Shown here: in pieces, positions 1 to 28,413 of the stretch
Numbering within the stretch: position 1 is the first letter of the stretch
Layout of the letters: every line of letters begins with the position of its first letter
Notes under the pieces: generated by a model
What the model was told of the DNA's origin: nothing
Database searches by the model: none
What the model saw: only the letters and a program-made list of their open reading frames with translations
Assembly: GCA_024654025.1 (NCBI GenBank)
Contig: JANLIR010000002.1
Coordinates: 101,639-165,638 of the forward strand
Direction: 5' to 3'
DNA from: Candidatus Wolfebacteria bacterium
Lineage (GTDB): Bacteria > Patescibacteriota > Minisyncoccia > UBA6257 > UBA9933
DNA: 64,000 nt
Translations under genes and position numbers: made by a program

Positions 1-65
1 CACCGACAGCGGCTATTATAATAACTAATCCTATTATGATTAACGTTTTTTTCATATCATTCTTT

Positions 66-950
66 CTATGGGCCGACTATGCTTCCAGCGGATGTTACTT
101 TAACATCCCAATGATCACCTCCCTTAGCGTCTTTTTCTCTGGCATAAATTGCTCCAGACGGCGCTCTATACTGGACCGCCCCATCGCTTCTTGTTCCTGC
201 TGGAGTGAAATTACTTTTTATATAGCTGTCAAGAATCGGATTGGGCCGAGCATCGAATTTATAACCGCTGCCGTGATCGTATCCCCCGACAGTATGCCCC
301 CCTTCCGTACCCCCTGTAACAAACACATTGTCGCCTCCAACCGCTTTTCCCAAAGATAAAATTTCCGACATTGTATCAACCTGTATTCCATTTAAACTAA
401 CGCAACCAGTTGTCTGTCCTTGCGCGCACGCTGTTTTGGTGCTTATTCCGTATGTTGAAAGTTGCCTTCTGCCCGCGTCCTCGCTATATGTTTCGCCGAC
501 TAAATCCGCGAAAGAAGAATAGGTAGTTGAGGTCGGGCTTTTTAAAACAGGCAAATCACCCAACTCTTTCCCTATGGCGCCGACGTCGTTTAATCGCGGG
601 TTAATTGTGTTAAAAATCACAGCCGCGCCAGCCAAAAGAACAATGCCCCAAAGCGTGTCTTTTATCCTTTCGTCAGCTTCTTTTATTAAATTAGGGTTTC
701 CTACCGCCCCCCAAGTTCTTAAAATTCCGGCGTAAACCAAAGATCCAAACGCCACAAGCCCCACCACAGCCATAGCAACGTTATACAAAAATCCAACCGA
801 CAATCCTAAATTGTTTCCGGAAGCGACATCGTTATACCCAGGAACGGTTTTGAAATACAATAAGACGCTTGACGAAGCGCCGAGGGCGGATTTGGCAAAG
901 ATAAAAATAATTAAAAATAAAAAAAATATACACGCGGTTTTTTTAATCAT
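66..950 (-). CDS. Secreted T4SS-associated protein with a pilin-like N-terminal region: signal peptide, then two hydrophobic helices (TrbC/VirB2-like topology), then a Gly/Thr-rich C-terminal domain
   Basis: N-terminus MIKKTACIFFLFLIIFIFAKSALGA followed by two ~20-aa hydrophobic segments; last gene of the VirB4 operon. Homology not verifiable here. Confidence 0.4.
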   Translation of the reverse strand: MIKKTACIFFLFLIIFIFAKSALGASSSVLLYFKTVPGYNDVASGNNLGLSVGFLYNVAMAVVGLVAFGSLVYAGILRTWGAVGNPNLIKEADERIKDTLWGIVLLAGAAVIFNTINPRLNDVGAIGKELGDLPVLKSPTSTTYSSFADLVGETYSEDAGRRQLSTYGISTKTACAQGQTTGCVSLNGIQVDTMSEILSLGKAVGGDNVFVTGGTEGGHTVGGYDHGSGYKFDARPNPILDSYIKSNFTPAGTRSDGAVQYRAPSGAIYAREKDAKGGDHWDVKVTSAGSIVGP

Positions 951-964
951 ATTTTTACGAAAAA

Positions 965-1660
965 TTATTTCAATTTAAATTGAATTTCTTTATTTGCAAA
1001 TTCCATTTCATTTAATAAATTTTTAGCGATGACTTTTAAATTAATTTGAGAATTCAAACCCACTTTTGGATCAACGTTAAAATCTAAAATATTCGAACCC
1101 TTGTAAATTCCGGTCGCTTGTCCGTTCGCCGTCCACTGAAAAGAAAGGTTGTTTATAATTTTTACATTAAAGAAAAACGGATTTGCCTTAAATATCGCTG
1201 TTTTTGAAATATTATTTAACGAAAACGCCGGCGACTCGATAACAACTTCCGGATTAACCACCGGTATTTGAATAATTTTATTAAGAGATTGGCCTTTGTA
1301 ATCGGGCAAAGCGATTCTTACCTCCGTATTATTGCCCGGATAATCAGTAACTGTAAATAAATATTTTTTTATTCCTAAACCGTCATTTTCATTTTTTACC
1401 AAATTGTCATTTATATACCAGCGCACAACGGTATTTGATAAATCGGAAATTTTACCGTTATTTATGAGCTCAAAACTTATGGACACGCGACTGCCTCGGC
1501 TCGGCAAAATTTTACCCTCATACCAAGCAGGTACAAAACCGTCAGCCTTCCAGCTGGTCAAAAAATCATAACCGCTCTGCGCGGAAACAAAATTAAACGT
1601 AAAAAATTGTCCAGCCAATAAAATTATAAAAAATGACGTTTTTGTATATTTTTTTATCAT
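965..1660 (-). CDS. Secreted hypothetical protein (signal peptide), T4SS-operon member
   Basis: N-terminal hydrophobic signal sequence; Asn-rich; operon context. Confidence 0.4.
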   Translation of the reverse strand: MIKKYTKTSFFIILLAGQFFTFNFVSAQSGYDFLTSWKADGFVPAWYEGKILPSRGSRVSISFELINNGKISDLSNTVVRWYINDNLVKNENDGLGIKKYLFTVTDYPGNNTEVRIALPDYKGQSLNKIIQIPVVNPEVVIESPAFSLNNISKTAIFKANPFFFNVKIINNLSFQWTANGQATGIYKGSNILDFNVDPKVGLNSQINLKVIAKNLLNEMEFANKEIQFKLK

Positions 1661-1728
1661 TTCATTATATGCGTTTGCAATTCCTAATTTCTAATAAAAT
1701 TTGTGATGTCCAATTCTTAAATTTAAAA

Positions 1729-2034
1729 TTATTCTTCTAATTCATCCGCCGCTTCTCTATTAATCTTTATAATAGAAGCTATAACTCCTCCGGTTTTCCC
1801 CGGTAAAAAACTGCCTGATAAAAAATCTATTCCTGCTCCTATCCCAAAGCCCCTCAAGCTTCCAATTCCGCCTTTCATAAATAGCCAAAAACCAAGCACC
1901 AACGCAACCGCGATATTTATCATCTCTCCAATAATTATACCAAAACCGGTCAAACTAACCAAAGCTTCTGCTCCATCGCTAAAAGCTGCTATCAACACCA
2001 TCATTATTCCTTCTGGAAGTGAAATTTTACTCAT
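1729..2034 (-). CDS. Small integral membrane protein (2-3 TM), possible pilin/VirB2-like component
   Basis: 101 aa, Gly-rich hydrophobic helices; immediately upstream of VirB4. Confidence 0.35.
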   Translation of the reverse strand: MSKISLPEGIMMVLIAAFSDGAEALVSLTGFGIIIGEMINIAVALVLGFWLFMKGGIGSLRGFGIGAGIDFLSGSFLPGKTGGVIASIIKINREAADELEE

Positions 2035-2071
2035 GATTTATCCTATAACAACGCAAATTCTTTGTTATTAG

Positions 2072-3820
2072 TTATTTCTCTTTTTCCATTTCCAACAACT
2101 CCTCCGGATTGGTTGTGATTAATTTGTCCTCGAAATACGACGGGATAATTCTTATCGCTACGTGCTTTAATCCGACGAAAAATATTCCTTCTCCTACTCC
2201 GGCCTGCAAAACCAAATTTTTTTCCGCTTCGGTTAAATAAAATGTCTTTGCCACCGCCTCAACGGCCGAAGGCGACTGCTTCAACAAAAGTTGGAGTGAA
2301 GAATTAGTGATAACGGGCTTACCTAAAGGCGAATCCAAAAATTCCTCCACGTTTTGAGTGATTGTCGTAAGACCCAAATAATATTTTCTACACCTTTTAG
2401 CCAAAGAATACAGAAACGCCGCGCTATCGGGATATTTCATCATCCACCACGCTTCGTCAATTATTAAAATTCTTTTTTTCATTTCCGAACGAATTACATT
2501 CCAAATAAAATTCAAAACGATATACATCGCTATAGGCCTTAATTCTTCTTCTAAATCACGAATAGAAAATATCACTAATCTATTTTTCACATCAACGCTT
2601 GTCGGTTTATTAATAAATCCGGCGTAAGTTCCTTTAGTAAAAGTATATAGCCGCATTGACAAATTTTTTCCGCCATCCATATTTTCTAAAACAGTCTGCA
2701 AATCTTCCAAAAGCGGGGCTTTGAATTTTGAAAAATCTTTAACTTCGGCGGTAATGCCTCTGGAAGCGTATGTTTCCGTTATGGCCTTATCCAAAACCGC
2801 TTCCTCTTCCGGCGTAACGTTTTTAAGCATTAATTTCAAAAGTCCGGTTAAGTTAAGGATATGCGACTTGAAAACATCGCCAGGGTCCTCATCTTTGGGA
2901 ATAATCGGAATGTCCAGTGGATTTATCGAATCGTTTGAATTTAAAGAAATTTTTAAAACCGTTCCGCCAACCGCGTCGGACAATCTTCGGTATTCGTCTT
3001 CCGGATCAATAACCAAAACATCTATACCGAGCATAAGCGACCTGATAATTTCCAATTTTGTCGAATACGATTTTCCCGCCCCGGCTTTGGCAAAAACAAC
3101 CTGGTTGGCATTTTCCAAAGAAAATCTGTCAAAAATAACCAGCGAATTATTATGCTGATTAACGCCATAAAGAACTCCCTTATCAGAAGTTAAATCCAAA
3201 GAAACAAACGGAAAGAAAGAAGACGCAGGCCCTGTATTTAACGGCGTATTAGCGAGTAATTTATCCTGGCAAAGTGGCAAGGTTGAAATAAGGCCGTCAA
3301 CATGCTGAAAAGTCGCCGGCTTTACGTAAACGAGCTGGCTTTCAAAAAGAGAGTTTATTTTATCCTCAATTCTCGCTAATTCTTCGATAGTCGGCGCATA
3401 TATTGTTATATAGACACCAACGCTTAAAAGTTTTTCTTGCGCCTGCTGTAAGTTGTTTCTTAGATTTTCAATGTCTTGATACGCTGTTTCAAGCATCGGA
3501 TCTCTTATTAATCCTTTTTCTTCCCGCTCCGAAAGCTCCGCCTCCAAAGAAGTGACTTTTTTTCTTAATTTCCGAAGAGCCGAAGCCGTATCAATTGGGT
3601 GAACAAATATAGAGATGTCGAGCAAATTGGGCATATTAATAATGGAATTAAACCACCCCGCTGACAAATACCTCGGATAATTCAGAATAAAAAGGGTTTT
3701 CACGAAAAAATCGCCGATTCTTAAATAGCCGGGATTAACCTCTAGCGCAGCCGGCGCGATAACATTCTTAACGTCTTTTTCCGAAGGCTCGTAAGGTTTT
3801 ATTATTTTTATTTGTTCCAT
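2072..3820 (-). CDS. virB4: VirB4/TrbE/CagE-family type IV secretion ATPase
   Basis: Walker A AGAGKSYSTK and Walker B RILIIDEAWWMM; length and domain order typical of VirB4. Confidence 0.8.
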   Translation of the reverse strand: MEQIKIIKPYEPSEKDVKNVIAPAALEVNPGYLRIGDFFVKTLFILNYPRYLSAGWFNSIINMPNLLDISIFVHPIDTASALRKLRKKVTSLEAELSEREEKGLIRDPMLETAYQDIENLRNNLQQAQEKLLSVGVYITIYAPTIEELARIEDKINSLFESQLVYVKPATFQHVDGLISTLPLCQDKLLANTPLNTGPASSFFPFVSLDLTSDKGVLYGVNQHNNSLVIFDRFSLENANQVVFAKAGAGKSYSTKLEIIRSLMLGIDVLVIDPEDEYRRLSDAVGGTVLKISLNSNDSINPLDIPIIPKDEDPGDVFKSHILNLTGLLKLMLKNVTPEEEAVLDKAITETYASRGITAEVKDFSKFKAPLLEDLQTVLENMDGGKNLSMRLYTFTKGTYAGFINKPTSVDVKNRLVIFSIRDLEEELRPIAMYIVLNFIWNVIRSEMKKRILIIDEAWWMMKYPDSAAFLYSLAKRCRKYYLGLTTITQNVEEFLDSPLGKPVITNSSLQLLLKQSPSAVEAVAKTFYLTEAEKNLVLQAGVGEGIFFVGLKHVAIRIIPSYFEDKLITTNPEELLEMEKEK

Positions 3821-3829
3821 TTTATTTTC

Positions 3830-4498
3830 TTATGACGCGCTTGCGATTTTTAAATCTTTTTTCTCAATTGCTTGAGGGTTATATAAATTATAAAAAAGCT
3901 CAATTAGTTCTTCGTCATTTAACGGCACCGCTCTCAATCCTATTTGTTCAAGCCCAACTACAACCTGATCGGTTCTTTGATTCAATTGCATAATACGCTC
4001 TCCTAAATCCTCTTCTTGTTTTGCTTCGTCTTTTTCTTTTCTGCCGAAAAACGCGAAAAACGGAAGCTTTGAAAGAAAACTTTTTTGGGCTGTTTGGGAA
4101 ATATCCATTCCGTCATAGGGCACAACCGCAAAAAAGGTTTTTGCCATTATATCGTTTTGTTTCACAAACGAGCGGATAAATTCTATATATTCGGCGATTT
4201 GATTTTTCAAAAGCTCGTTCTGCTCTTCAGCCTGCCTTTGAGAAAGCATTTCTAAATAACCTTCTATATTCAACCGGCGGGAATGGATTATTATTTGCAC
4301 TGAAAAATCCAATGTGTTTAAAAAATTCTGGTAACCGCCGATTATGATATTTTGCTCTTCCTCTGACTTTAATTCAAAATTCGTTCCGCTAACCATCACA
4401 ACTCGCCGAAGACCTCCGCTTCTTAAAATAATTACTCCGTCCTTTATGTCTTCAATATCTACGAATTGTTGAGTTGAAATTGTTTCTTTTGCTGGCAT
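3830..4498 (-). CDS. Hypothetical cytoplasmic protein, T4SS-operon member
   Basis: ORF tightly packed between the PrgI-like gene and VirB4; no recognisable motif. Confidence 0.35.
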   Translation of the reverse strand: MPAKETISTQQFVDIEDIKDGVIILRSGGLRRVVMVSGTNFELKSEEEQNIIIGGYQNFLNTLDFSVQIIIHSRRLNIEGYLEMLSQRQAEEQNELLKNQIAEYIEFIRSFVKQNDIMAKTFFAVVPYDGMDISQTAQKSFLSKLPFFAFFGRKEKDEAKQEEDLGERIMQLNQRTDQVVVGLEQIGLRAVPLNDEELIELFYNLYNPQAIEKKDLKIASAS

Positions 4499-4543
4499 TT
4501 TTTTATTATAACCTTAATACTTAATACTTTCTACCGATTTTAA

Positions 4544-5101
4544 TTATCTGAAATCAACTCTTCTGGCCGCTTCCTTTTCACCGCTTGTTTTTCTAAAAAA
4601 ACTTACGCGTTCTGCCATTCTGGGTTTTGGAATAAATTTCTCGCGCTTAGGTAGAGGATTTTTTGTCGTCATTAAATCATCCCATAATTTTTTAATCGCT
4701 GGGGCAGGGTTGAATAAGCTTCCCAAACTCTCTCGCTGGGCTAAAACTTTTTCAGTTGGAATTATTTTAACTAGCGCTTTTTGCAGCTGGGGAAGTTTCG
4801 GAATTTTTATTATTACCTCTTCCGATTCCCGCTTCCATAAATAAAATCTCGGCTTCCATAGAAATCCGACGCTCGCTAAAAAAATCTTAGAAATCGACTG
4901 TCCGTTATACTTCGCAAATCCGAAAACCAAAGCTATTGCCACCAAAAGAGCGGTCGCTAAAATCCAGAAAAAAAAATTAAAGACAAAATAGCTAAGCAGG
5001 CTTATTCCTCCGGCAAAAACCAGATAAAGAACTTGTTTTAAAGTCAAAGGCCCGGCTATTTTATCCTCTATTTCTATAAATTGGGGAACCTGAAATTGCA
5101 T
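4544..5101 (-). CDS. PrgI/VirB3-like membrane protein
   Basis: Two N-terminal TM helices (LYLVFAGGISLLSYFVFNFFFWILATALLVAIALVF) and a charged C-terminal tail, lying 5' of the VirB4 gene as in Gram-positive-type T4SS. Confidence 0.5.
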   Translation of the reverse strand: MQFQVPQFIEIEDKIAGPLTLKQVLYLVFAGGISLLSYFVFNFFFWILATALLVAIALVFGFAKYNGQSISKIFLASVGFLWKPRFYLWKRESEEVIIKIPKLPQLQKALVKIIPTEKVLAQRESLGSLFNPAPAIKKLWDDLMTTKNPLPKREKFIPKPRMAERVSFFRKTSGEKEAARRVDFR

Positions 5102-5114
5102 AATAATGATACAA

Positions 5115-5144
5115 ATATACTAATTTTACTAATGATACGAATGG
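5115..5144. repeat. MITE-like repeat, left arm (atatactaattttactaatgatacgaatgg); further copies at 28414-28443 and 15317-15341
   Basis: Near-identical 25-30-mers at three loci. Confidence 0.7.
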
Positions 5145-5557
5145 GATACGAATTCATTCCTGTTAATCGTATCAATCTTAATAATTCTTTTGGGTTTTAA
5201 ATATTTGTCCCTAAAGTTTATAAGCACCCCCAACCTTAAATTTAAGGCTTGTAAATAACGTTGAGTTTGATAATAATCTTCTTTAGTTAAAATGCGCTTA
5301 GCCTTAAATTCAAGAATAAGTTTATCATCTATTAAAAAATCAACCACATTACCACTGTCACCTAAACGTAATTCTTTTTTGTAAGGAATTTTAATTTCTT
5401 TTAATTTACGCTCAAATTCATCAGAATATTGTTTTTCCTTTGCAAACCTCCCCAAATCGTTATGAACAGCAAAACAAATACCAGTAATAACATAAGAAAT
5501 TTCGGGATAAATTATCTTATTTTTATTATTCGTATTATTAGTATCATTCGTTCTCAT
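5129..5557 (-). CDS. GxxExxY family protein (PD-(D/E)xK-like); both termini encoded by repeat arms
   Basis: Pattern E.sY..tG.cF.VHN.LG..F.E..Y...L..EL...GI......E...V.DFLID.KLILEFKAK matches the GxxExxY family; flanked by the MITE arms. Confidence 0.55.
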   Translation of the reverse strand: MRTNDTNNTNNKNKIIYPEISYVITGICFAVHNDLGRFAKEKQYSDEFERKLKEIKIPYKKELRLGDSGNVVDFLIDDKLILEFKAKRILTKEDYYQTQRYLQALNLRLGVLINFRDKYLKPKRIIKIDTINRNEFVSHSYH

Positions 5558-5573
5558 TCGTATATTGGTATCA
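5528..5573. repeat. MITE-like repeat, right arm (attcgtattattagtatcattcg...cgtatattggtatca); further copy at 28460-28488
   Basis: Imperfect inverted match to the left arm; shared with the 28.4 kb locus. Confidence 0.65.
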
Positions 5574-5578
5574 ATTTA

Positions 5579-6955
5579 TTATTCAACGATTTTTCTAAGG
5601 TCAATAACGTCTTCTTCAACCGGAATGTCTTTTAATTGTAATTCATCCGGCGATTTAGCTGCCGTTTTTTGTTCGGGCTTTTGTTCGATTTTAAACATTT
5701 GTTTTCGGGCATCTTCAAAAGCTTTTTTCTCCGCCGCTGCTTTTATGCTTAATCCAAACTCCGGTCTTGGAGCTGAAAAACCAATTTTTGCGCCGTTATC
5801 GATCTTTATCGAACTTTGCTCAACTAAAGGAACTTGTATTCTTTTCTCTTCTGTAATTCTTTCCGTTTGGAAAGTTTCCATTTTTTTGTCATTCGTTTCA
5901 TTAGCATGCATTCGTCCTTCGGTCTGCTCAGGACGACCTCCTCGAGTCTGAGTCTCGGAGTCGAAGACCTGAGCTTGCCGAATGGGTCGTATATTGGTAT
6001 CGCGTTGTTCTTTTTTCTCTTCCATTTTTACCACTTTAGGCTCGAAACCAATATTAATTTCTTTGCTTTGAGAAAAAACCTGAGACTGAAAAGGCTTTTC
6101 TTTTCCAAAAGGAGACATCGGCGTATTTAAATCGCTATAATGAACTACTCTGACATTTGGTTTCTCCATTTGTATCTTGTTTTCCTTTTTCTTTTCCACG
6201 TCAGCGCCAAAACTTATTTTTGCCGCCAAATCTGATGATTCTTTTCTTGCCGCCGGCTCTTGTCCGGAAGAAAAAGTAAACACTTCAGCCAAAGATTTTT
6301 TATCCGCCGCAAGCGGTGTTAATTCTGTTTCCTTATGTAAAATCATCGGCGCTTCTTCTTCGCCAAGTGATTTTTCCAAAGTTATTCCGCTGACCTTCGG
6401 CTCGATTTTTCCGAAAACCGTCGGTTCTTCTTTTTTAATTTCCTGTCTAAATTCCGGTTTTTTCAACACTACCGCTTCTGGAAATATTTCTTTCGACTTT
6501 ATCTCAATTGTTTCGCTTGAAATTCCAAGAGCTGATTTTGTTTTTAAATCAACAACGTCTTCTTTTGTTGCGGGCTTTAATTCAATTTTAGGCGCTCCCC
6601 AAGACAATGCCGATTTTGAAACAACCAACGGACTGTAAATTTTTTTAATTTCGTCTTTTAACGATATGAAAATCTTTTTATCAATCTCTTGATAAATCGA
6701 ATCAGCTAATTGTTTATTGACCTCCAGATTTTCGGCGATTTCTTTGCTCATATCTTCAATCGCCACAAATCCGGACAAAACCAAAGCGGTTAACTGCTCA
6801 ATAGTTAAAGTTTTTTCATCATCAAAATAATGAGATTGGCAAATATGCCGGACAGTTCCCATTACGCTCTCTGAATTAAGAGCGTTTTTTAAAATACTCG
6901 GCAAGTCATAAACGCGTTTTTGAAATTGTTGTTCGGTGATTAAAAAGTAGTCCAT
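5579..6955 (-). CDS. Hypothetical protein: ~100-aa structured N-terminus, then a long Lys/Glu-rich disordered region containing an in-frame 95-bp repeat module
   Basis: Low-complexity K/E/P-rich sequence; segment IRPIRQAQVFDSETQTRGGRPEQTEGRM is encoded by the repeat at 5909-6002. Confidence 0.4.
   Translation of the reverse strand: MDYFLITEQQFQKRVYDLPSILKNALNSESVMGTVRHICQSHYFDDEKTLTIEQLTALVLSGFVAIEDMSKEIAENLEVNKQLADSIYQEIDKKIFISLKDEIKKIYSPLVVSKSALSWGAPKIELKPATKEDVVDLKTKSALGISSETIEIKSKEIFPEAVVLKKPEFRQEIKKEEPTVFGKIEPKVSGITLEKSLGEEEAPMILHKETELTPLAADKKSLAEVFTFSSGQEPAARKESSDLAAKISFGADVEKKKENKIQMEKPNVRVVHYSDLNTPMSPFGKEKPFQSQVFSQSKEINIGFEPKVVKMEEKKEQRDTNIRPIRQAQVFDSETQTRGGRPEQTEGRMHANETNDKKMETFQTERITEEKRIQVPLVEQSSIKIDNGAKIGFSAPRPEFGLSIKAAAEKKAFEDARKQMFKIEQKPEQKTAAKSPDELQLKDIPVEEDVIDLRKIVE
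5890..6002. repeat. 95-bp GC-rich repeat module (cattcgtccttcggtctgctcaggacgacc...gaatgggtcgtatattggtatcg) inside a CDS; inverted copy at 25498-25613; truncated copy at 28488-28553
   Basis: ~94/95 identity between the 5909-6002 copy and the reverse complement of 25498-25591. Confidence 0.8.
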
Positions 6956-6961
6956 AAAAAT

Positions 6962-8593
6962 TTATTTATTTTCATCTTTTTTTTCTTCTTTTTTAGGTGT
7001 CTCATCTTTTCCGACAGCTAACCATTTCATTTCTTTGTGCAATTTCCCATCAGTTAATTGAAGACCCATGTTCTTACAAGGCAAAACCGGCTCTTTAGTT
7101 GATTTTACAACCGCACCGCAAACACTACATGTCCATTCACTTGATTTCTTTTTACCAACAAATAATCCACTTCCTTTCTTCATTCCGTCAATAATTGACT
7201 TAGAAAGGTTATCGGGCTTGTATTCTTCGGCTCGTTTAAAAGTTTTTCCCGCCTTGCCAACTCTTCCCGCAAACCATTGGCTCACCTTCCCCCCTCCTTT
7301 CAAACGCTCTTCCAATCCGGCCGCCTTATCTGACAGACCAGCTCTTCTGAGCGCCCATCCTCCAGTTTTTAAAGGCAGCTTCTTACCCCAAGCCCCAACC
7401 CCTTTCATTAATCCTTCAGCTGCTCCAAACGCCGCTTTCGATCCGACTGTTCCCAATTTACTGGACAAAATCAACCCTCCCATCAAAATACCCAGTATCA
7501 TTACCAATTGAGAAATATAACCCACATCTATAGTAATAGGTTGATTGCTTAAGTTCTTCGGCGCGTATTGGGAAAATACATTTTGATTCGCGTCAGCGTT
7601 AATCACATAAATAGTCAGGTATAAAAAGAACAAAACCATCGGCGCGAAAATCAACCAATGAAGCAATTTTTTCCACCACCATTTCCACCATTGCGCGGTT
7701 GAGGGAAATATCCACGCCAGCCAAATAACCGGCGAAAGAATCAAAAGAAATGTTAAATAAATGTATCTTATTAAAAGCATTCCTGCCAAGCCCAAAAAAG
7801 TAAGCGCGGCTAAAATAGTAAAGAGCGCGATAAATAAAAGAGTGGCTATTCCTTTCAGGGCTGTGCCAAATGGGTTGGCGCTAGGAGTATCGGCAACAAA
7901 GGCCTTCGTTTCCTCGTCGCTTTTAAAAATTATTCCCATATCGCCGCTTACTCGGCTACTATCAATAACCTCCGAACTTGACGCAACCGCTGTAGAACTT
8001 GTTGTCTGCGGATTTTGTGACTGTACCTGAGCCTTAATCCGGCTAAGCTCCTGGCCCGAAAGCATAAACTGGGGGTTTATCACGGCGGCAAGTTTTGTTG
8101 AAAGGCCAACCTGTGAAGTTCCTTGAATTTTTCCTATAAAAAAATTAGTTAGCCCGTCGGAAGCTTCTATAAAAAATCCGGCAATAGCCAAACTGAAATT
8201 AACAAGTAACGCCGCCACTATTAATTTCCACAGAGTTTTTTTCATCCCGTAACTTTGTAATCCCACAATGGTGGCGAAAGCGATTACGATAATCGCCAGC
8301 ACAAATCCCAAATTGGTAAAATTCAAAACTATGCTCCAGCCGGTTTTAATAAACGGATTGTCCAAAAGATGCATATTCACCGCCAAAGCGAAATCCAAAA
8401 AAACTCCGCCGATATAAAAAACTACTTGAGCGATAAAACCCAAAACATAAGAAATAACCAGAACAATTCCGGATATTGCCGCGTTTGTAATGCCTCCTAT
8501 AAGATCTCCCACCAGTCCGGCGTTAGCCCAAAGAGGCATCGCTGACAAAATCGAAGACAACGCAAAAATTTTTTTAAATAACTTTTTTCTCAT
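6962..8593 (-). CDS. VirB6/TrbL-like polytopic membrane protein of the T4SS
   Basis: At least 8 predicted TM helices, Trp-rich loop WWKWWWKKLLHW, C-terminal Cys motif CSVCG...C; operon position. Confidence 0.5.
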   Translation of the reverse strand: MRKKLFKKIFALSSILSAMPLWANAGLVGDLIGGITNAAISGIVLVISYVLGFIAQVVFYIGGVFLDFALAVNMHLLDNPFIKTGWSIVLNFTNLGFVLAIIVIAFATIVGLQSYGMKKTLWKLIVAALLVNFSLAIAGFFIEASDGLTNFFIGKIQGTSQVGLSTKLAAVINPQFMLSGQELSRIKAQVQSQNPQTTSSTAVASSSEVIDSSRVSGDMGIIFKSDEETKAFVADTPSANPFGTALKGIATLLFIALFTILAALTFLGLAGMLLIRYIYLTFLLILSPVIWLAWIFPSTAQWWKWWWKKLLHWLIFAPMVLFFLYLTIYVINADANQNVFSQYAPKNLSNQPITIDVGYISQLVMILGILMGGLILSSKLGTVGSKAAFGAAEGLMKGVGAWGKKLPLKTGGWALRRAGLSDKAAGLEERLKGGGKVSQWFAGRVGKAGKTFKRAEEYKPDNLSKSIIDGMKKGSGLFVGKKKSSEWTCSVCGAVVKSTKEPVLPCKNMGLQLTDGKLHKEMKWLAVGKDETPKKEEKKDENK

Positions 8594-8598
8594 TTTAA

Positions 8599-10098
8599 TT
8601 ATCCGCTCGAACTAGCAATACAAACGCTTAGCCGATTTTGCGCGTCTTGCAAATCATTTCTGAATTTATCGGTTTCCGTGTCCGCCGCCGCTCTGTTATC
8701 ACCGTCATATATTCGCCTTTGCATCTCTTCCGTATTGTACTTTGCCATAAATTCATTTGCTTTTTGCAAAACGCGTGTCAACGCCGCGGTTGTCTTAGCC
8801 GCGTTAATCTCCGCAATTAAAGCCTTTGCTTCGTTAGTTTTCGCAGTCAAATCGCTGATTTGATTCTTTAACAATTCAATACTCGATTGAAGAGCGGCGA
8901 TTTGCGCATCCGATACGGGCGGTTGGCAATTTTTAGTCTTTAAATTATTGAGAATTGCCAATTCCTGATTAGCATAATCAAGCGCCTTACTCTTGGCATT
9001 TAAAATATATTGCCACTCGTCATTTATTTTTTTAACAGAACCTAATATCTCTTGTTGCTGTTGTTTCAATTCGGCATCAACCAATCCCGACATTTCCGGC
9101 GGGTAATAACTTCCACCTCCACCACCACTTGACGAACCTTTCAAAGCCGAGAGTCCTTCCGTGAAAAGCCGGTTAATAACAGCGTTAACAAGAGCCGACA
9201 TCCAAGACTGAATATTCGCCGCCCATTCTATATCCGAAGTCATTCCTTTTGCCACAACCGCGCCAACAGTATCACCCGGAGTAACGATTTCTTCTTTTAA
9301 ACACTTTGCATTAGCCGTCTTCCTATTAACACATCCCTCATAAAGAAGAGTACTAAAACCACCGCTTTCATCATACGATTCATTTTCGCAAGCAACGAGT
9401 TCTGACTCGCTAACGTCTTCGTATTTAACGCATTTTTTCTGTCCCAAAAATCCTTTACCCGAAACCGCTTCGTTTGTTGCCGCCGTCACTTTCTTACTGG
9501 TTTCGATTTGAATTTGATCTTGAATCATTATCTGCTGTCCATAATAATTGTTTTGCGGCTGCCAAGCTTCGTTATAAGCAATCCATCCGCCTTTTTCAAA
9601 ATTAGTGTAAAAATCGTTGATATTTTTTACCACATCGTCTAATGTGCAGGAAATCTGGTCTCCAAACCTTTTCACTGGCAACAAACCAACTTTCACTTGC
9701 AAACTAAACGGAGAACAAAGCCGAGACGCCCCTACGTCTTTTATAACCTGATCAAAGGCGATATTACCGGCATCTTTTAAAAATCCGTTCCAATCAGTGA
9801 CGAATTTTGGCTTACCTCCGCCTTGAACCCATTTAACGGTTTGATCCACAACATAATCGATTATTCTTTTCGCAAGAATATCTCTAGCCACTTTACTCAT
9901 TTTTTCGTATAAAAAGTTATACGCTTCCTTCAAATAACCCCAGGCCTGTATCGCGTATTGAACAACCTGCATAGGCAAAAGCGCGAGAACCGCGTTTGCT
10001 TTTTTTTCAGTTTTCAAAAAAAGGCCGGGCAAAGCAAAGATCATTAAAAAGATCAAGAAACCCAATATTGCTTTTGTAATAATTCTATTCATTATCAA
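8599..10098 (-). CDS. Secreted/membrane-anchored coiled-coil protein, T4SS-associated
   Basis: N-terminal TM, Gly-run SSSGGGGGSYYPP, long C-terminal coiled coil. Confidence 0.4.
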   Translation of the reverse strand: MIMNRIITKAILGFLIFLMIFALPGLFLKTEKKANAVLALLPMQVVQYAIQAWGYLKEAYNFLYEKMSKVARDILAKRIIDYVVDQTVKWVQGGGKPKFVTDWNGFLKDAGNIAFDQVIKDVGASRLCSPFSLQVKVGLLPVKRFGDQISCTLDDVVKNINDFYTNFEKGGWIAYNEAWQPQNNYYGQQIMIQDQIQIETSKKVTAATNEAVSGKGFLGQKKCVKYEDVSESELVACENESYDESGGFSTLLYEGCVNRKTANAKCLKEEIVTPGDTVGAVVAKGMTSDIEWAANIQSWMSALVNAVINRLFTEGLSALKGSSSGGGGGSYYPPEMSGLVDAELKQQQQEILGSVKKINDEWQYILNAKSKALDYANQELAILNNLKTKNCQPPVSDAQIAALQSSIELLKNQISDLTAKTNEAKALIAEINAAKTTAALTRVLQKANEFMAKYNTEEMQRRIYDGDNRAAADTETDKFRNDLQDAQNRLSVCIASSSG

Positions 10099-10114
10099 TG
10101 GCGTTAAACTTCTG

Positions 10115-10981
10115 TTATCCGTTTAAATCTTGCGTTTTTTGAGCGTATTCTTTTTTAATATCGAGCTCTTCTTTTGCTATATCCGGGATTGATTGAAAAA
10201 AAATCTGAGCTTTCACAGGGTCATTCTGTAAATTAGCAATGCCTCGATAAATAAGACTGGCTTTTTTTAAAAAAAACAAATACTTCTTGTGTAGATTTTC
10301 ATAATCGGACGGGGTGGCTATTTTAGAAATTTCGTTATAGATATTTTCGTAAGTACTTGCTATTTTCTCCACATCAGAAGCGTCGCCTTTGTCTACCATT
10401 TTCCCCAGAGCTAAATCTGGCCGGCCATACGGACCGCTTAAATTTTTAAAAATAATTTCACTGACTGACTGCACATATTCTGATTTTTTTTCGTTAGAAT
10501 TATCCCCGCTTACAATAACATCGCCCGCGGGAATAGAAACCGTAAAAATTTTGGAATAATCCAATTTCGACAGAACATCATTAATCATTGTTTGAGTTTG
10601 AGGATTTTTAGGATCCAAGGCTCCATTAAAAGGACTTTTACCCGACTGATCTAAAGTTTTCATTTTTTCAAAAATTAACTGCCCCACCATTTCAGTCAAA
10701 TTTACGTTGCTATGTTGGGAGCTAGCCATCGTTTTATTACTCACTTCCGAATTATCTTTATTATTCCCAGAAGGAATTTCACTTCCATTTGAGGCTACTT
10801 TTTCAACCCATTTTATAGGCAATGACTCTGAAGTTTCGGCTCTTTGAAAAAACCCGCTATTATTAGCGCTCTTTCCCGCATCGCCCGAAAACAAAGAAAT
10901 AGGATTTTTTATAATAAAATAGGACAGCGCCAAGCCAGCGCCTAAAACCAAAACTATTACTGCAAGTTTAAGTCGGCTCAT
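10115..10981 (-). CDS. Membrane-anchored hypothetical protein; first gene of the T4SS-like operon
   Basis: N-terminal TM helix, Ser/Asn-rich. Confidence 0.4.
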   Translation of the reverse strand: MSRLKLAVIVLVLGAGLALSYFIIKNPISLFSGDAGKSANNSGFFQRAETSESLPIKWVEKVASNGSEIPSGNNKDNSEVSNKTMASSQHSNVNLTEMVGQLIFEKMKTLDQSGKSPFNGALDPKNPQTQTMINDVLSKLDYSKIFTVSIPAGDVIVSGDNSNEKKSEYVQSVSEIIFKNLSGPYGRPDLALGKMVDKGDASDVEKIASTYENIYNEISKIATPSDYENLHKKYLFFLKKASLIYRGIANLQNDPVKAQIFFQSIPDIAKEELDIKKEYAQKTQDLNG

Positions 10982-11902: not shown

Positions 11903-13450
11903 TTAACTGTTTAATTTTAAAAAGGAGTGGTAAAAATCCGAGTACAATTTAAAATAACGGTTCATCACGGGCATCATCAATCTCTCTACTGGAGAAAAAT
12001 TATCGGACAACACAACCCCGCCGTCATCTGAATAATTTCTCTCATCCGCAATATGGGATGCCAGCCACTGGCCGTTTTTGAGATTAATTAAATTGCTCTT
12101 TATTTTAGAAATATCTTGATGAAAATTTGAATTAATTCCGATTAAAACTACATTTTGAGGATAATAAGAAAGCTCTCCGGTAGTAAAAATATACATATTA
12201 GGAAAAGCCTCCCTAAAGGTTTTCAACATACTCCGGAAAAAAAGAGATTCTTTTCCTTTGGTGGGCGAAACAAAATTAACCGCGTATATTCCGTCTTCTG
12301 TTAATCTTGTTTTTGCCAAAAAAGCGAAATCCTTTGTTGTAAGATGCCAAGGAAGCGAAATAAAAGAATTAAACGCGTCTTCAAAAATTAAATCATACTT
12401 TTTGTCTTTCCCTTTAAGCGCAACGCGGCCGTCATTTCTTTCGGTGGTTATGCGATAATCTTTTAAATTAAAAAACTTTTCCGCTGCTTCTTTTACTTTT
12501 GAATCAATTTCAACAACCGTTACTTTCGAATCTTTGTAATAATCGGCAAAATATTTTGGCATTGAATATGACCCTCCCCCAATAACAAAAATCTCCTTTA
12601 AAGGATTTTTAAATGCGGAAAAAAGCGGATACATATCGGGATAACCGCCTAAAAATTTTCCCGATCGGCTTTCAATGCTATGAGCGTCAAAATCTAAAAA
12701 AAGAACTCTCACGTCGTCCATCCCTAAAACTCCATCAGCTACTTTGATAGAATAATAATTGCTTTCTTTTGAATAAAGCGTGTTTTGGGCCAAGCTCACC
12801 GAACTGACGGACAAAAACAAAACAATTAAAATCACTATTGCGAATAATATGGAAATTATTAACTGTATTTTAGATTTATAAAAAAATAAGGTAACGCACA
12901 TTAACAACAAAGCAACTCCCATAAGAGTCGCCCTACTGCCCAGATAGCCGATAAAGATAAAGCCGGTTATAAATGTTCCGGCGATACTGCCAAGCGACCA
13001 AAACGCCGACAACGTTCCGGCGCTAATCCCGAGACACTCAAATGAATTTGTATAATTTTTTAAAATAACGGGAGAAAGCGCTCCTAAAAAAATTGACGGT
13101 AAGAAAAAAAATAAAAAAGACATTAATAAAATAGTGACTGGAAGCGTCAAGGACCACGTTGTAAGTATTTCGCCAAAAGGAATAATGAACGGGATTATAA
13201 AAACACTGACAGACGCCAGCGCAAACACCAACCAGTTTAAATTCTTATAAACATACTTATCCGCCAAAAATCCGCCTAAATAATACCCCGCCGATAATCC
13301 CAAAAGTACAACCCCTATAACCGATGTCCATGTATACAAAGACGATCCCACATAAGGCGCGATAACGCGGCTGGCAGTAAGCTCAACCGTCATTAAAGAA
13401 AATCCCGCGACAAAAGAAGAGATTAAAAACAACGTTCTGTTTTTAGCCAT
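11903..13450 (-). CDS. Fused polytopic membrane domain / spermidine synthase-like (aminopropyltransferase fold) protein
   Basis: ~7 TM helices N-terminally; C-terminal VLVIGGGSYSMPKYF...VVEID Rossmann/SpeE-like motif. Confidence 0.6.
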   Translation of the reverse strand: MAKNRTLFLISSFVAGFSLMTVELTASRVIAPYVGSSLYTWTSVIGVVLLGLSAGYYLGGFLADKYVYKNLNWLVFALASVSVFIIPFIIPFGEILTTWSLTLPVTILLMSFLFFFLPSIFLGALSPVILKNYTNSFECLGISAGTLSAFWSLGSIAGTFITGFIFIGYLGSRATLMGVALLLMCVTLFFYKSKIQLIISILFAIVILIVLFLSVSSVSLAQNTLYSKESNYYSIKVADGVLGMDDVRVLFLDFDAHSIESRSGKFLGGYPDMYPLFSAFKNPLKEIFVIGGGSYSMPKYFADYYKDSKVTVVEIDSKVKEAAEKFFNLKDYRITTERNDGRVALKGKDKKYDLIFEDAFNSFISLPWHLTTKDFAFLAKTRLTEDGIYAVNFVSPTKGKESLFFRSMLKTFREAFPNMYIFTTGELSYYPQNVVLIGINSNFHQDISKIKSNLINLKNGQWLASHIADERNYSDDGGVVLSDNFSPVERLMMPVMNRYFKLYSDFYHSFLKLNS

Positions 13451-25497: not shown

Positions 25498-25613
25498 CGA
25501 TGCCAATATACGACCCATTCGGCAAGCTCAGGTCTTCGACTCCGAGACTCAGACTCGAGGAGGTCGTCCTGAGCAGACCGAAGGACGAATGACATGCGAA
25601 TGATACGAATAAT
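25498..25613. repeat. Inverted copy of the 95-bp module plus arm fragment, in the KH-gene upstream region
   Basis: see 5890-6002. Confidence 0.8.
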
Positions 25614-28390: not shown

Positions 28391-28413
28391 ATCACTTCGC
28401 TAATATGATACCA

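What the first reader, a model, noticed from the sequence alone, without database searches (positions are those of the whole stretch)
66..10981. Eleven-gene minus-strand T4SS-like operon lacking relaxase and coupling protein
A VirB4 ATPase (Walker A/B present), a PrgI/VirB3-like two-TM protein, a VirB6/TrbL-like polytopic protein, a pilin-like secreted protein and four or five secreted or anchored hypotheticals are packed head-to-tail. No VirD4, VirB11 or relaxase is present anywhere in the window. A stand-alone PilB/GspE ATPase (23399-25072) and comM lie nearby. This organisation fits a non-conjugative Gram-positive-type secretion or uptake apparatus, as proposed for epibiotic reduced-genome bacteria. 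The accessory secreted components (965-1660, 3830-4498, 8599-10098, 10115-10981) are unrecognisable and may be lineage-specific adhesins or effectors.
Basis: partly seen in the sequence, partly recalled or inferred. Interest (0 to 1): 0.55.

Follow-up and report, generated by a model that had tools for sequence, protein, structure and literature searches.

The report
Chromosomal type IV secretion gene cluster
This is the conserved, non-conjugative type IV secretion gene cluster that almost all Patescibacteria (here a Candidatus Wolfebacteria genome) carry near their replication origin; it is real and probably vital to their host-attached life, but it was described in 2023-2025 and is not new.

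Summary
[quoted passage not shown] The VirB4 ATPase passes curated thresholds, PrgI/VirB3 passes Pfam's cut-off, and no relaxase, VirD4 or VirB11 was found in the window or within 10 kb beyond its left edge in close relatives.

Corrections:
- 3830-4498 is not a secreted unknown. It is the cytoplasmic N-terminal part of VirB4 (TrsD-like), split from the ATPase.
- 5129-5557 is an unrelated PD-(D/E)XK nuclease cassette.
- A twelfth conserved gene (TolB-like propeller) starts at base 55 and runs off the window.
- The "accessory" genes are not lineage-specific. The order 11-10-VirB6-like-08-PrgI-TrsD-VirB4-03-02-pilin-00, downstream of uvrD-ksgA, recurs across Paceibacteria (38 of 40 full-length loci collinear).

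The window is chromosomal, about 31 kb from dnaA, from a Ca. Wolfebacteria MAG. This system is already published: monophyletic Patescibacteria VirB4 clade, no relaxase, next to dnaA/ksgA, and essential for epibiotic growth in Southlakia.

One possibly new detail is that the VirB2-like pilin carries an unnamed extracellular domain with a VanX/VanY-like zinc-peptidase signature. Orthologues at the same position carry other cell-wall enzymes.

The parts
1..55 (-). First 18 codons (MKKTLIIIGLVIIIAAVG...) of a twelfth cluster gene, cut by the window edge. It encodes a membrane-anchored TolB-like beta-propeller protein, about 387 aa in relatives.
   Evidence: The translation of the window edge matches the N-terminus of the 387-aa gene that follows the pilin gene in L001/L004. 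The family profile hits TolB in PDB at 8.8e-6, and PD40 repeats are found in 6 of 30 members. The gene is present in 37 of 40 full-flank loci.
66..950 (-). VirB2/TrbC-like T4SS pilin module (Sec signal peptide and two TM helices ending in NTINP, residues 1-118) fused to an extracellular C-terminal domain (about residues 155-290). That domain belongs to an unnamed family with a VanX/VanY-like H-x2-G-x3-D and E...H-x-D signature. It is a candidate cell-wall peptidase, i.e. a functional VirB1 analogue.
   Evidence: T4SS_pilin 0.0028 in the window protein, below cut-off. 60 of 68 syntenic orthologues match T4SS_pilin (best 2.3e-11) and 9 match TrbC. The protein is 100% identical to NCBI MCR4275231.1, annotated 'pilin'. 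The C-domain has 1567 representative relatives; H219, H226, G229, D233, E272, H280 and D282 are invariant. No Pfam, PDB or fold match was found.
965..1660 (-). Secreted protein (signal peptide) made of tandem Ig-like domains. Two domains here; about 330 aa in most relatives.
   Evidence: One N-terminal hydrophobic segment. The family profile hits the Ig-like Hoc protein at 1.3e-4, plus other Ig folds. Present in 37 of 40 full-flank loci at this position.
1729..2034 (-). Small integral membrane protein (2-3 TM segments, conserved Asp in TM1, conserved I-P...L-P motif) directly downstream of VirB4.
   Evidence: TM prediction and family alignment. No Pfam or NCBIfam family. Detected in 23 of 40 full-flank loci, an underestimate because the protein is small.
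2072..3820 (-). VirB4 ATPase, middle and C-terminal parts (582 aa), with Walker A and Walker B motifs.
   Evidence: 8000 or more homologues were found; the best 120 are 568-596 aa, 69-98% identical, and named Wolfebacteria/Patescibacteria VirB4/TraC.
3830..4498 (-). TrsD-like protein, i.e. the detached N-terminal domain of VirB4. It is cytoplasmic. A 9-nt gap separates it from the ATPase ORF.
   Evidence: NCBIfam hits: CD1110 VirB4 profile positions 2-115, TIGR00929 positions 8-186, TrsD 6e-9. Pfam TraC_F_IV 4.7e-4. Precomputed PF26593 TraC-like in orthologues. It is fused with the ATPase into a 769-790 aa ORF in L011, L021 and L025. Junction sequence.
4544..5101 (-). PrgI/VirB3-like membrane protein.
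   Evidence: Pfam PrgI 8.2e-10, 39.5 bits against a cut-off of 27. Present in 40 of 40 full-flank loci.
5129..5557 (-). Not part of the T4SS. This is a PD-(D/E)XK (PDDEXK_3) nuclease ORF flanked by imperfect inverted repeats, an interloper in a variable intergenic slot.
   Evidence: Pfam 7.6e-19. In L001/L002 the slot holds a 23S_rRNA_IVP gene; in L004 it holds no gene. Inverted repeats. A related hairpin element lies at 28394-28500.
5579..6955 (-). Soluble protein with no TM segment. It has a conserved N-terminal domain of about 100 aa and a long Pro/Lys/Glu-rich low-complexity tail. Its role is unknown.
   Evidence: No PDB, Pfam or NCBIfam match. Present in 36 of 40 full-flank loci.
6962..8593 (-). 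Polytopic membrane protein (six or more TM segments) with a Cys-rich C-terminal tail; the VirB6/TrbL-like candidate.
   Evidence: TM prediction. Weak TrbL_3 hit in the 84%-identical L001 orthologue. No Pfam hit for the window protein and no PDB VirB6 hit. Present in 37 of 40 loci.
8599..10098 (-). N-terminally anchored extracytoplasmic protein. It has a conserved Cys-containing N-domain and a C-terminal helical bundle.
   Evidence: TM prediction. 189 homologues, all unnamed and without Pfam domains. In the AF2 model the C-terminal 170 residues have pLDDT above 90 and the N-domain has low confidence. Foldseek found only generic coiled coils. Present in 31 of 40 loci.
10115..10981 (-). N-terminally anchored extracytoplasmic protein; the first gene of the module, directly downstream of ksgA.
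   Evidence: TM prediction. No Pfam, PDB or NCBIfam match. Present in 30 of 40 loci.

Best explanation
This is the chromosomal, vertically inherited type IV secretion system (T4SS) of Patescibacteria, in its Paceibacteria/Wolfebacteria form. It derives from monoderm (MPF-FATA) conjugation machinery and has lost, or never had, the DNA-processing parts.

Shown here:
- A split VirB4 motor (TrsD-like N-domain plus ATPase).
- A PrgI/VirB3-like protein.
- A VirB2-like pilin.
- Six further conserved envelope or soluble proteins in a fixed order near oriC.
- No relaxase, VirD4 or VirB11 within reach.

Inferred working model:
1. VirB4 docks through PrgI and the polytopic VirB6-like protein to form the membrane translocon.
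2. The bitopic proteins (10115-10981, 8599-10098), the Ig-like protein and the TolB-like propeller form the wall-spanning scaffold.
3. The Sec-inserted VirB2-like protein is pulled from the membrane by VirB4 into a pilus or stalk.
4. That protein carries an extracellular zinc-peptidase-like domain that cuts peptidoglycan cross-links, either in its own wall during assembly or in the host wall at the contact site.
5. The resulting conduit moves macromolecules between host and epibiont and is needed for host-dependent growth.

The direction of transfer and the cargo are not determined. I put about 0.9 on the identity and about 0.4 on the pilin-displayed wall-cutting step.
For: - Identity of parts.
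- Chromosomal core context: uvrD, ksgA, comM, polA, yidC, ruvB, dnaE, dnaN and dnaA (41756-43114) lie in the window. GC content is the same as the rest of the window and the GC skew turns near 48 kb.
- Synteny: among 84 related loci from Wolfe-, Jorgensen-, Harrison-, Azam-, Kaiser-, Giovannoni-, Nomura- and Taylorbacteria, 38 of 40 with full flanks are collinear and 29 of 40 hold all ten core families.
- Selection: VirB4 is 55-98% identical across these loci but at most 36% identical to any plasmid VirB4.
- No VirD4 (CD1115) or FtsK-like match in the window or any locus flank.
- A Firmicute plasmid has the same PrgI-VirB4-wall hydrolase order, together with VirD4.
- Literature: PMC12102498 describes a monophyletic Patescibacteria VirB4 clade within MPF-FATA. 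It also reports TrsD, PrgI, VirB6 and VirB2 near virB4, proximity to dnaA/dnaN/ksgA/rnpA, and relaxases in only 103 of 3035 genomes. PMC10633639 shows by Tn-seq that the T4SS and its pilins are essential in Ca. Southlakia epibionticum. PMC12857230 reviews the system.
- Wall-cutting step: orthologues of the pilin protein carry M23, M15_3, YkuD, NlpC/P60, CHAP or SLT domains. The window's domain co-occurs elsewhere with PG_binding_1, PG_binding_3, PASTA and SLT. It carries invariant H-x2-G-x3-D, E and H-x-D residues.
Against: - No experiment exists for any Paceibacteria system; the essentiality data come from Saccharimonadia.
- The VirB6 assignment is weak.
- No VirB8-like fold was found; the only model of a candidate is mostly helical.
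- The rest of the genome could not be searched, and PMC12102498 reports VirD4-like genes far from virB4 in most Patescibacteria.
- A globular domain on a VirB2 subunit may be incompatible with pilus polymerisation. In that case the pilin module is only a membrane anchor.
Confidence: 0.82

Rival explanations
1. Import machine. The cluster works like the Helicobacter ComB or archaeal Ced systems, which are T4SS-derived and lack coupling protein and relaxase. It would take up host nucleic acids (DNA or RNA) for nucleotide salvage by a genome without de novo nucleotide synthesis.
For: The part list (VirB2-, VirB3-, VirB4- and VirB6-like; no VirD4, VirB11 or relaxase) equals the inner-membrane set of ComB (own knowledge of ComB2/3/4/6). 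There are weak VirB4 similarities to CedB and CedD. comM and a PilB ATPase lie 5-14 kb away. A 2026 preprint reports T4SS-like tubes at the host interface of a cultivated relative that acquires host RNA, and links VirB4 to macromolecule transfer (10.64898/2026.06.21.733656).
Against: In Ca. Southlakia, comEC deletion abolishes competence but not growth, while the T4SS is essential. ComEC-dependent DNA uptake is therefore not the essential role (PMC10633639, as summarised in PMC12857230). No nuclease or nucleic-acid-binding component was recognised in the module; the PDDEXK gene is an interloper. The CedB/CedD hits are far below cut-off.
Confidence: 0.3
2. Export machine for proteins. Like Bordetella Ptl or Brucella VirB, which lack a coupling protein, the system would push Sec-exported proteins outward onto or into the host. 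Candidates are the pilin-enzyme fusion and the Ig-like protein.
For: Wang et al. favour protein export or an alternative role because coupling protein and relaxase are missing (PMC10633639). Two cluster proteins have Sec signal peptides. The C-terminal domain of the pilin protein is swapped between lineages in the way effector domains are.
Against: No secreted substrate has been shown in any Patescibacteria. The Ig-like protein and the other envelope proteins are positionally conserved, as structural parts would be. No toxin-immunity pair is visible in the cluster.
Confidence: 0.3
3. Ordinary conjugative element (ICE or plasmid remnant) whose relaxase and coupling protein lie outside the window.
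For: VirB4, PrgI and TrsD are homologous to conjugation proteins of Firmicute and Actinobacterial plasmids. The rest of the genome was not searched.
Against: The cluster has the same housekeeping neighbours (uvrD-ksgA upstream; histidine kinase, fpg and PBP downstream) across a whole class. There is no integrase, relaxase, T4CP or compositional shift. Relaxases occur in only 103 of 3035 Patescibacteria genomes (PMC12102498).
Confidence: 0.04
4. Decaying, non-functional remnant of a T4SS.
For: VirB4 is split into two ORFs, and an unrelated nuclease gene is inserted in the cluster.
Against: The split is the conserved state: 79 of 82 loci have two intact ORFs, and the N-terminal part is 38-52% identical to that of the three fused versions. 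All ORFs are intact. VirB4 is 55-98% identical across the class. The nuclease sits in an intergenic slot and disrupts nothing.
Confidence: 0.02

Closest known systems
Patescibacteria (CPR) T4SS: Quinonero-Coronel et al. 2025, PMC12102498; Ca. Southlakia epibionticum SEML1_0006-0019, Wang et al. 2023, PMC10633639
   Same: A VirB4 whose best relatives are all Patescibacteria. TrsD directly upstream of VirB4, with PrgI/VirB3, a VirB6-like protein and a VirB2-like pilin nearby. No relaxase and no adjacent coupling protein. Chromosomal location next to ksgA and near dnaA/dnaN.
   Different: Nothing in kind. Compared with the Saccharimonadia prototype there is one pilin-like gene with a C-terminal enzyme-like domain instead of an array of six short pilins. 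The peptidase/lysozyme genes downstream of virB4 are replaced by that fusion. Five conserved Paceibacteria components (10115-10981, 8599-10098, 5579-6955, 1729-2034 and the TolB-like gene) are not matched by any T4SS or other family model I could run.
MPF-FATA conjugative T4SS of monoderms (CD1110/CTn2 type, pGO1 Trs, pCF10 Prg)
   Same: VirB4 of the CD1110 family, above NCBIfam's cut-off. PrgI lies upstream and a wall-hydrolase-type gene downstream of VirB4, as in Paenibacillus plasmid NZ_CP045297.1. A separate TrsD protein, as in pGO1 (PMC12102498).
   Different: No VirD4/TcpA coupling protein, no relaxase, no adhesin of the PrgB type, and not on a mobile element. It has a VirB2-like pilin, which monoderm conjugation systems lack. 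Identity to plasmid VirB4 is at most 36%.
Helicobacter pylori ComB and archaeal Ced DNA-import systems
   Same: T4SS-derived, with a VirB4-like motor, and without coupling protein, VirB11 or relaxase (own knowledge). There is weak CedB/CedD similarity in the P-loop region.
   Different: No ComB7-10 outer-membrane parts (monoderm envelope) and no CedA-like protein was recognised. Import has not been shown, and the essential role in Southlakia is independent of ComEC.
Bordetella Ptl and Brucella VirB (T4SSs without coupling protein)
   Same: Lack of a T4CP. A possible reliance on Sec-exported substrates.
   Different: Those are diderm MPF-T systems with VirB7/9/10 and VirB11. They have known toxin or effector substrates and target eukaryotic cells.
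VanX/VanY-type D,D-peptidases (MEROPS M15, LAS fold), for the C-terminal domain of 66-950 only
   Same: Invariant H-x2-G-x3-D motif (144 of 144 representatives) and E-x2-H (105 of 144), in the same order as the SxHxxGxAxD and ExxH motifs recalled for VanX/VanY. Extracytoplasmic location. Co-occurrence with peptidoglycan-binding modules.
   Different: No significant match to any M15 Pfam model, PDB sequence or structure. There is an extra invariant TGGTE-x-GH motif and a Cys pair. In the window protein, E and H are 7 residues apart.

Membership tests
Type IV secretion system (defined by VirB4) | VirB4-family ATPase passing curated model thresholds | tested here: met
   NCBIfam NF045971 (CD1110 VirB4) 370.7 bits against a cut-off of 325. 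Pfam P-loop_TraG 82.7 bits against 25.8, and AAA_10 40.3 against 27.5. PDB 4ag5 VirB4, 6.7e-47.
Type IV secretion system (defined by VirB4) | Intact Walker A and Walker B motifs | tested here: met
   AKAGAGKS (G247, G249, K250, S251) and IIDEAW (D455, E456), invariant in 11 aligned homologues.
Monoderm MPF-FATA-type T4SS | PrgI/VirB3-like membrane protein next to VirB4 | tested here: met
   Pfam PrgI 39.5 bits against a cut-off of 27. It lies two genes upstream of the ATPase ORF and is present in 40 of 40 full-flank loci.
Monoderm MPF-FATA-type T4SS | No outer-membrane core (VirB7/VirB9/VirB10) | tested here: met
   No such family among the Pfam or NCBIfam hits of any cluster protein. This is absence at HMM sensitivity only.
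Monoderm MPF-FATA-type T4SS | VirB6-like polytopic channel protein | tested here: inconclusive
   Six or more TM segments. Weak TrbL_3 in the L001 orthologue. No Pfam hit for the window protein and no PDB VirB6 hit.
Monoderm MPF-FATA-type T4SS | VirB8-like (NTF2-fold) bitopic protein | tested here: inconclusive
   There are two bitopic candidates. The model of 8599-10098 is mostly helical and not NTF2-like. 10115-10981 was not modelled, and neither gave a sequence hit. PMC12102498 also rarely finds VirB8 outside class ABY1.
Monoderm MPF-FATA-type T4SS | Cell-wall hydrolase (VirB1 role) in the cluster | tested here: inconclusive
   The C-domain of 66-950 has a zinc-peptidase-like signature and peptidoglycan-related domain neighbours but no model or fold match. 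Orthologues carry M23, M15_3, YkuD, NlpC/P60, CHAP or SLT domains.
Conjugative T4SS (plasmid/ICE) | Relaxase | tested here: not met
   No relaxase family in any ORF of 90 aa or more in the 64-kb window, nor among called genes within 10 kb either side in L001-L004. The rest of the genome was not searchable.
Conjugative T4SS (plasmid/ICE) | Type IV coupling protein (VirD4/TcpA) | tested here: not met
   No T4CP family in the window (same calls). phmmer with a CD1115 VirD4 and an FtsK-like protein found nothing in the window or in 84 locus flanks. Elsewhere in the genome was not testable.
Conjugative T4SS (plasmid/ICE) | Location on a mobile element (integrase, att sites, compositional shift) | tested here: not met
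   Housekeeping genes lie on both sides, synteny holds class-wide, and GC is 0.35-0.41 like the rest of the window.
Patescibacteria-clade T4SS | VirB4 belongs to the Patescibacteria VirB4 clade | tested here: met
   Tested by similarity only; no tree was built. All of the best 120 hits that carry names, and 80 genome loci, are Patescibacteria at 55-98% identity. The best plasmid VirB4 is 36% identical.
Patescibacteria-clade T4SS | TrsD-like protein encoded next to virB4 | tested here: met
   3830-4498, with a 9-nt gap to virB4. TrsD 6e-9 and VirB4 N-terminal profile positions. Present in 38 of 40 loci and fused in the others.
Patescibacteria-clade T4SS | VirB2-like pilin gene near virB4 | tested here: met
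   66-950: family-level T4SS_pilin and TrbC matches. NCBI names the identical protein 'pilin'. The window protein alone is below Pfam's cut-off.
Patescibacteria-clade T4SS | Chromosomal position near dnaA/dnaN/ksgA | tested here: met
   ksgA is 38 nt upstream of the first cluster gene. dnaN is at 40523-41638 and dnaA at 41756-43114.
Patescibacteria-clade T4SS | Required for epibiotic growth | not testable with these tools
   Shown only for Ca. Southlakia epibionticum by Tn-seq (PMC10633639).
MEROPS M15 / LAS zinc peptidases (C-domain of 66-950) | Zinc-ligand motifs H-x(6)-D and a C-terminal His, with the catalytic Glu in E-x-x-H (recalled from VanX/VanY) | tested here: met
   H..G...D in 144 of 144 and E..H.[DH] in 105 of 144 representatives, in order, with a median of 38 residues between them. 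In the window protein: H226-D233 and E272...H280-W-D282.
MEROPS M15 / LAS zinc peptidases (C-domain of 66-950) | Significant match to a family model or to the LAS fold | tested here: not met

The most novel reading that the evidence does not exclude
The VirB2-like pilin of the Paceibacteria T4SS is a carrier for interchangeable extracellular cell-wall enzymes. In this genome it bears a previously unnamed domain family with the signature TGGTE-x-GH ... H-x2-G-x3-D ... E-x2-H-W-D. The family has about 1,500 representative sequences at 50% clustering. Half of the 144 top-scoring representatives examined sit on T4SS pilin modules, and a few of the others sit next to peptidoglycan-binding domains. 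The motifs point to a new branch of VanX/VanY-like zinc peptidases. If the fusion is built into a pilus or stalk, these bacteria would present wall-cutting enzymes at the tip or surface of a T4SS filament to open the host's wall. That would give a concrete mechanism for how an epibiont gains access to its host. I found no mention of such pilin-enzyme fusions in the papers I could search.
Probability: 0.35. Interest if true: 0.6.

Novelty: already known. Interest (0 to 1): 0.25.

Why it matters
Patescibacteria make up a large share of bacterial diversity and live attached to host cells, and this T4SS is one of the few machines shown to be essential for that life style (in Saccharimonadia). What it transports, and in which direction, is an open question.

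This window adds no new kind of system. It does give a clean, complete Paceibacteria example in which:
- every gene of the module can be placed;
- the supposed unknown at 3830-4498 is resolved as the VirB4 N-domain;
- the pilin gene turns out to carry a candidate wall-cutting domain. That domain could be expressed and assayed, and the fusion could be looked for in cryo-ET maps of host contact sites.

Tried and rejected
- **AF2 model of 8599-10098 (45 sequences).** The C-terminal helical bundle is confident and the N-domain is poor. Foldseek found only coiled coils. It is not NTF2/VirB8-like, and VirB5-likeness could not be judged.
- **Profile searches against PDB sequences.** Nothing meaningful for 8599-10098, 10115-10981, 5579-6955, the VirB6-like family and the pilin C-domain.
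- **Pfam at E up to 10 on the C-domain family.** Nothing.
- **Local hhalign of the C-domain profile against M15-like C-domains of orthologous pilins.** The motifs align but probabilities are below 5%.
- **NCBIfam on ten cluster proteins.** Only VirB4 and TrsD are recognised.
- **Promoter and terminator scan.** Promoter-like sites are not above the shuffled expectation, and every terminator-like site on the minus strand lies inside an ORF. Transcription-unit limits therefore stay open, and uvrD, the SpeE-like gene and ksgA may be co-transcribed with the cluster.
- **Exact-sequence look-up of the window's pilin protein in the contig index.** It failed. The source was identified instead through a cluster member.
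- **Readings rejected.** An ICE or plasmid origin, and pseudogenisation of VirB4 (see the rival explanations).

Full report
**Observation.** The region 66-10981 holds eleven minus-strand ORFs at exactly the coordinates given, separated by 5-68 nt. The window is a piece of a small, AT-rich chromosome.
- Flanking genes are housekeeping: ksgA, a SpeE-like membrane protein, uvrD, comM, a dksA-type zinc-finger protein gene, polA, yidC, ruvB, a lone pilB, rpsP, smc, rnc, nusB, thrS, dnaE, ruvC, a PBP, dnaN, dnaA, rnpA, relA and ligA.
- The GC skew turns near 48 kb.
- GC in the cluster (0.35-0.41) does not differ from the rest of the window.
- The pilin-like protein is 100% identical to NCBI MCR4275231.1, 'pilin [Candidatus Wolfebacteria bacterium]', on a 248,723-bp contig. 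The organism is a Wolfebacteria member of the Parcubacteria/Patescibacteria group.

**What the genes are.**
- *2072-3820* is a VirB4 ATPase.
  - Pfam P-loop_TraG scores 82.7 bits (cut-off 25.8), with AAA_10 and DUF87 also matching.
  - NCBIfam 'VirB4-like conjugal transfer ATPase, CD1110 family' scores 370.7 bits (cut-off 325), covering profile positions 181-732.
  - PDB 4ag5 VirB4 matches at E=6.7e-47.
  - Walker A (AKAGAGKS) and Walker B (IIDE) are intact.
  - It matches the first 115-186 positions of VirB4 models and the TrsD family.
  - Its orthologues carry PF26593 TraC-like.
  - In three related loci (L011, L021, L025) the two ORFs are one 769-790 aa protein. Residues 1-214 of that protein align to 3830-4498 (38-52% identity) and the remainder to 2072-3820 (59-66%).
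  - VirB4 is therefore split, and the split is the conserved state. The best 120 homologues of the ATPase part are all 568-596 aa, and 79 of 82 loci have two ORFs. The junction is TAA, nine bases, then ATG.
- *4544-5101* is PrgI/VirB3-like (39.5 bits, cut-off 27).
- *6962-8593* has six or more TM segments. Its 84%-identical orthologue has a weak TrbL_3 hit. Neither Pfam nor a PDB profile search confirms VirB6.
- *5129-5557* is a PDDEXK_3 nuclease (7.6e-19) and does not belong to the system.
  - The same intergenic slot holds a 23S_rRNA_IVP gene in L001/L002 and no gene in L004.
  - Similar genes occur in only three other loci, in other slots.
  - The gene lies between inverted repeats that recur as an empty hairpin between smc and rnc.

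**The remaining genes are conserved, not lineage-specific.** I fetched 84 related loci: four by exact protein look-up and 80 from a scan of one genome per species. They span Wolfe-, Jorgensen-, Harrison-, Azam-, Kaiser-, Giovannoni-, Nomura- and Taylorbacteria. Iterated profiles built from each window protein recover the same order almost everywhere: uvrD - ksgA - [10115-10981] - [8599-10098] - VirB6-like - [5579-6955] - PrgI - TrsD - VirB4 - [1729-2034] - [965-1660] - pilin-like - a 387-aa gene. Of 40 distinct loci with full flanks, 38 are collinear and 29 hold all ten core families.

The last gene of this order starts at base 55 of the window and is cut by its edge. Its family is a membrane-anchored TolB-like beta-propeller (TolB 8.8e-6; PD40 in 6 of 30 members).

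The others resolve only partly:
- 965-1660 is a secreted protein of tandem Ig-like domains.
- 8599-10098 and 10115-10981 are N-terminally anchored extracytoplasmic proteins without any recognisable family. The AF2 model of the former has a confident C-terminal helical bundle and a poorly defined N-domain, and Foldseek gave only generic coiled coils.
- 5579-6955 is soluble, with a conserved domain of about 100 aa and a long low-complexity tail.
- 1729-2034 is a small 2-3-TM protein.

**Absence of conjugation functions.**
- No relaxase, VirD4/TcpA, VirB11 or integrase family appears among the ORFs of 90 aa or more in the window.
- In relatives with 96-98% identical VirB4, the 10 kb beyond the window's left edge encode the TolB-like gene, a histidine kinase, fpg, a PBP, galT, a VTT-domain protein and gyrB.
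- A phmmer search with a Firmicute VirD4 (CD1115) and an FtsK-like protein found nothing in the window or in any of the 84 flanks.
- The rest of the genome could not be searched.

The closest plasmid VirB4 proteins are 30-36% identical. They come from Actinobacteria and Firmicutes and are often annotated as CD1110 family. A Paenibacillus plasmid shows VirD4 - two hypothetical genes - PrgI - VirB4 - NlpC/P60. This is the same PrgI-VirB4-wall hydrolase core, but with the coupling protein and an unsplit VirB4.

**Comparison with the literature.** This is the system described by Quinonero-Coronel et al. 2025 (PMC12102498).
- 2,425 VirB4 proteins from 2,407 of 3,035 Patescibacteria genomes form one clade nested in MPF-FATA.
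- TrsD is the most frequent neighbour of virB4.
- PrgI/VirB3, VirB6 and VirB2-like pilins lie nearby.
- VirB8 is rarely detectable.
- Relaxases are found in only 103 genomes.
- T4CP homologues are mostly far from virB4.
- dnaA, dnaN, rnpA and ksgA are the typical neighbours in Paceibacteria.

Wang et al. 2023 (PMC10633639) showed by Tn-seq that the T4SS and its pilin genes are essential for epibiotic growth of Ca. Southlakia epibionticum, and noted the missing coupling protein and relaxase. A 2025 review treats the system as a new T4SS type that may build a pilus and serve exchange or uptake (PMC12857230). A 2026 preprint reports possible T4SS pili at the host interface of a cultivated relative that acquires host RNA.

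**A detail that may be new.** The pilin-like protein (66-950) has a Sec signal peptide and two TM helices ending in NTINP. This is the VirB2/TrbC architecture: 60 of 68 syntenic orthologues match T4SS_pilin and 9 match TrbC. A linker and a domain of about 135 aa then follow on the outer side of the membrane.
- Extensions are the rule. In 51 of 68 orthologues the part after the pilin module is 100 aa or longer.
- The extension differs between lineages. Single members carry Peptidase_M23, Peptidase_M15_3, YkuD, NlpC/P60, CHAP or SLT.
- The window's own domain matches no Pfam or NCBIfam model, yet it has 1,567 representative relatives at E of 0.001 or better.
- In 144 of these relatives, H219, H226, G229, D233, E272, H280 and D282 are invariant. 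TGGTE, a Cys pair and an Arg are nearly so.
- All 144 carry H-x2-G-x3-D. 105 carry E-x2-H-x-[DH] about 38 residues later. From memory, this is the spacing of the SxHxxGxAxD and ExxH motifs of VanX/VanY-type zinc D,D-peptidases (MEROPS M15, LAS fold).
- Half of the 144 have a T4SS pilin N-terminus. A few others carry PG_binding_1, PG_binding_3, PASTA or SLT.

**Mechanism.**
- *Shown:* the part list, its conservation, its chromosomal core context and the lack of DNA-processing genes nearby.
- *Inferred:* the split VirB4 docks via PrgI and the polytopic protein. The anchored and secreted proteins build the wall-spanning part. The VirB2-like protein is extracted into a filament, or stays as an anchor, and brings a wall-cutting domain to the envelope or to the host. 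The conduit supports host-dependent growth.
- *Open:* without a coupling protein, recruitment of cytoplasmic substrates is hard to see. That leaves Ptl-like export of Sec-delivered proteins or ComB/Ced-like import as the two live refinements, and I cannot separate them with sequence data.
- *Against:* an ICE remnant and a decaying system are both contradicted by the synteny and conservation.

**Verdict.** The finding is real and its interpretation is correct. It is a member of a system that has been described in detail, including its Paceibacteria gene neighbourhood, so novelty is low. The corrections and the pilin-enzyme fusion are the useful additions.

Noticed in passing
window 5096-5585 and 28394-28500 (also 25596-25606): The PDDEXK_3 gene is bracketed by imperfect inverted repeats: arms of 24 nt at 83% and 18 nt at 89% complementarity. 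About 45 nt of its 3' flank recur almost unchanged in a hairpin-like element, without an ORF, between smc and rnc. The core motif ACGAATGATAC occurs 5 times against 0.73 expected. This looks like a small inverted-repeat element that sometimes carries a PD-(D/E)XK or four-helix-bundle (23S_rRNA_IVP) gene. The same slot holds the latter in L001/L002.
   Followed up: partly
window 1-55 (minus strand); L001:13751-14914; L004:13888-15051: A twelfth conserved cluster gene encodes a membrane-anchored TolB-like beta-propeller (PD40 repeats; two family members also carry PG_binding_1). Only its first 18 codons are in the window.
   Followed up: yes
L011:788-3160, L021:9332-11704, L025:9431-11740: In three of 82 related loci the TrsD-like ORF and the VirB4 ATPase ORF are one 769-790 aa protein. 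The split seen in the window therefore coexists, within the same group, with a minority fused state; which state is ancestral was not determined.
   Followed up: yes
window 11903-13450: A 515-aa protein with seven predicted TM segments fused to a spermidine-synthase-like domain lies between uvrD and ksgA. It was found in only two other loci (L001/L002) and is absent from L004 and from the more distant loci, so it is a recent insertion into an otherwise fixed uvrD-ksgA junction.
   Followed up: partly
window 23399-25072 and 16284-17816: The PilB/GspE ATPase (T2SSE, 3.8e-119) stands alone between ruvB and a KH-domain gene. No Pfam-recognised pilC, pilM or prepilin family appears in the window. 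comM lies 5 kb from the T4SS cluster.
   Followed up: partly
window 50001-52510: This is the segment with the highest GC in the window (0.483 against about 0.39). It holds two ORFs (50131-51153 and 51299-52510, minus strand) without any Pfam match, just past the point where the GC skew changes sign.
   Followed up: no
window 53142-55085: A 647-aa protein with several weak, repeated Ig-like/CARDB-type hits (DUF11, A2M, Alpha_adaptinC2). It is probably a surface protein of stacked beta-sandwich domains, located between recO and a class II tRNA synthetase gene.
   Followed up: no
window 40523-43114, 43439-43798, 48000: dnaN, dnaA and rnpA lie together and the cumulative GC skew has its minimum at about 46-48 kb. 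The replication origin is therefore inside the window, and the T4SS genes are co-oriented with replication, about 31-43 kb from dnaA.
   Followed up: partly
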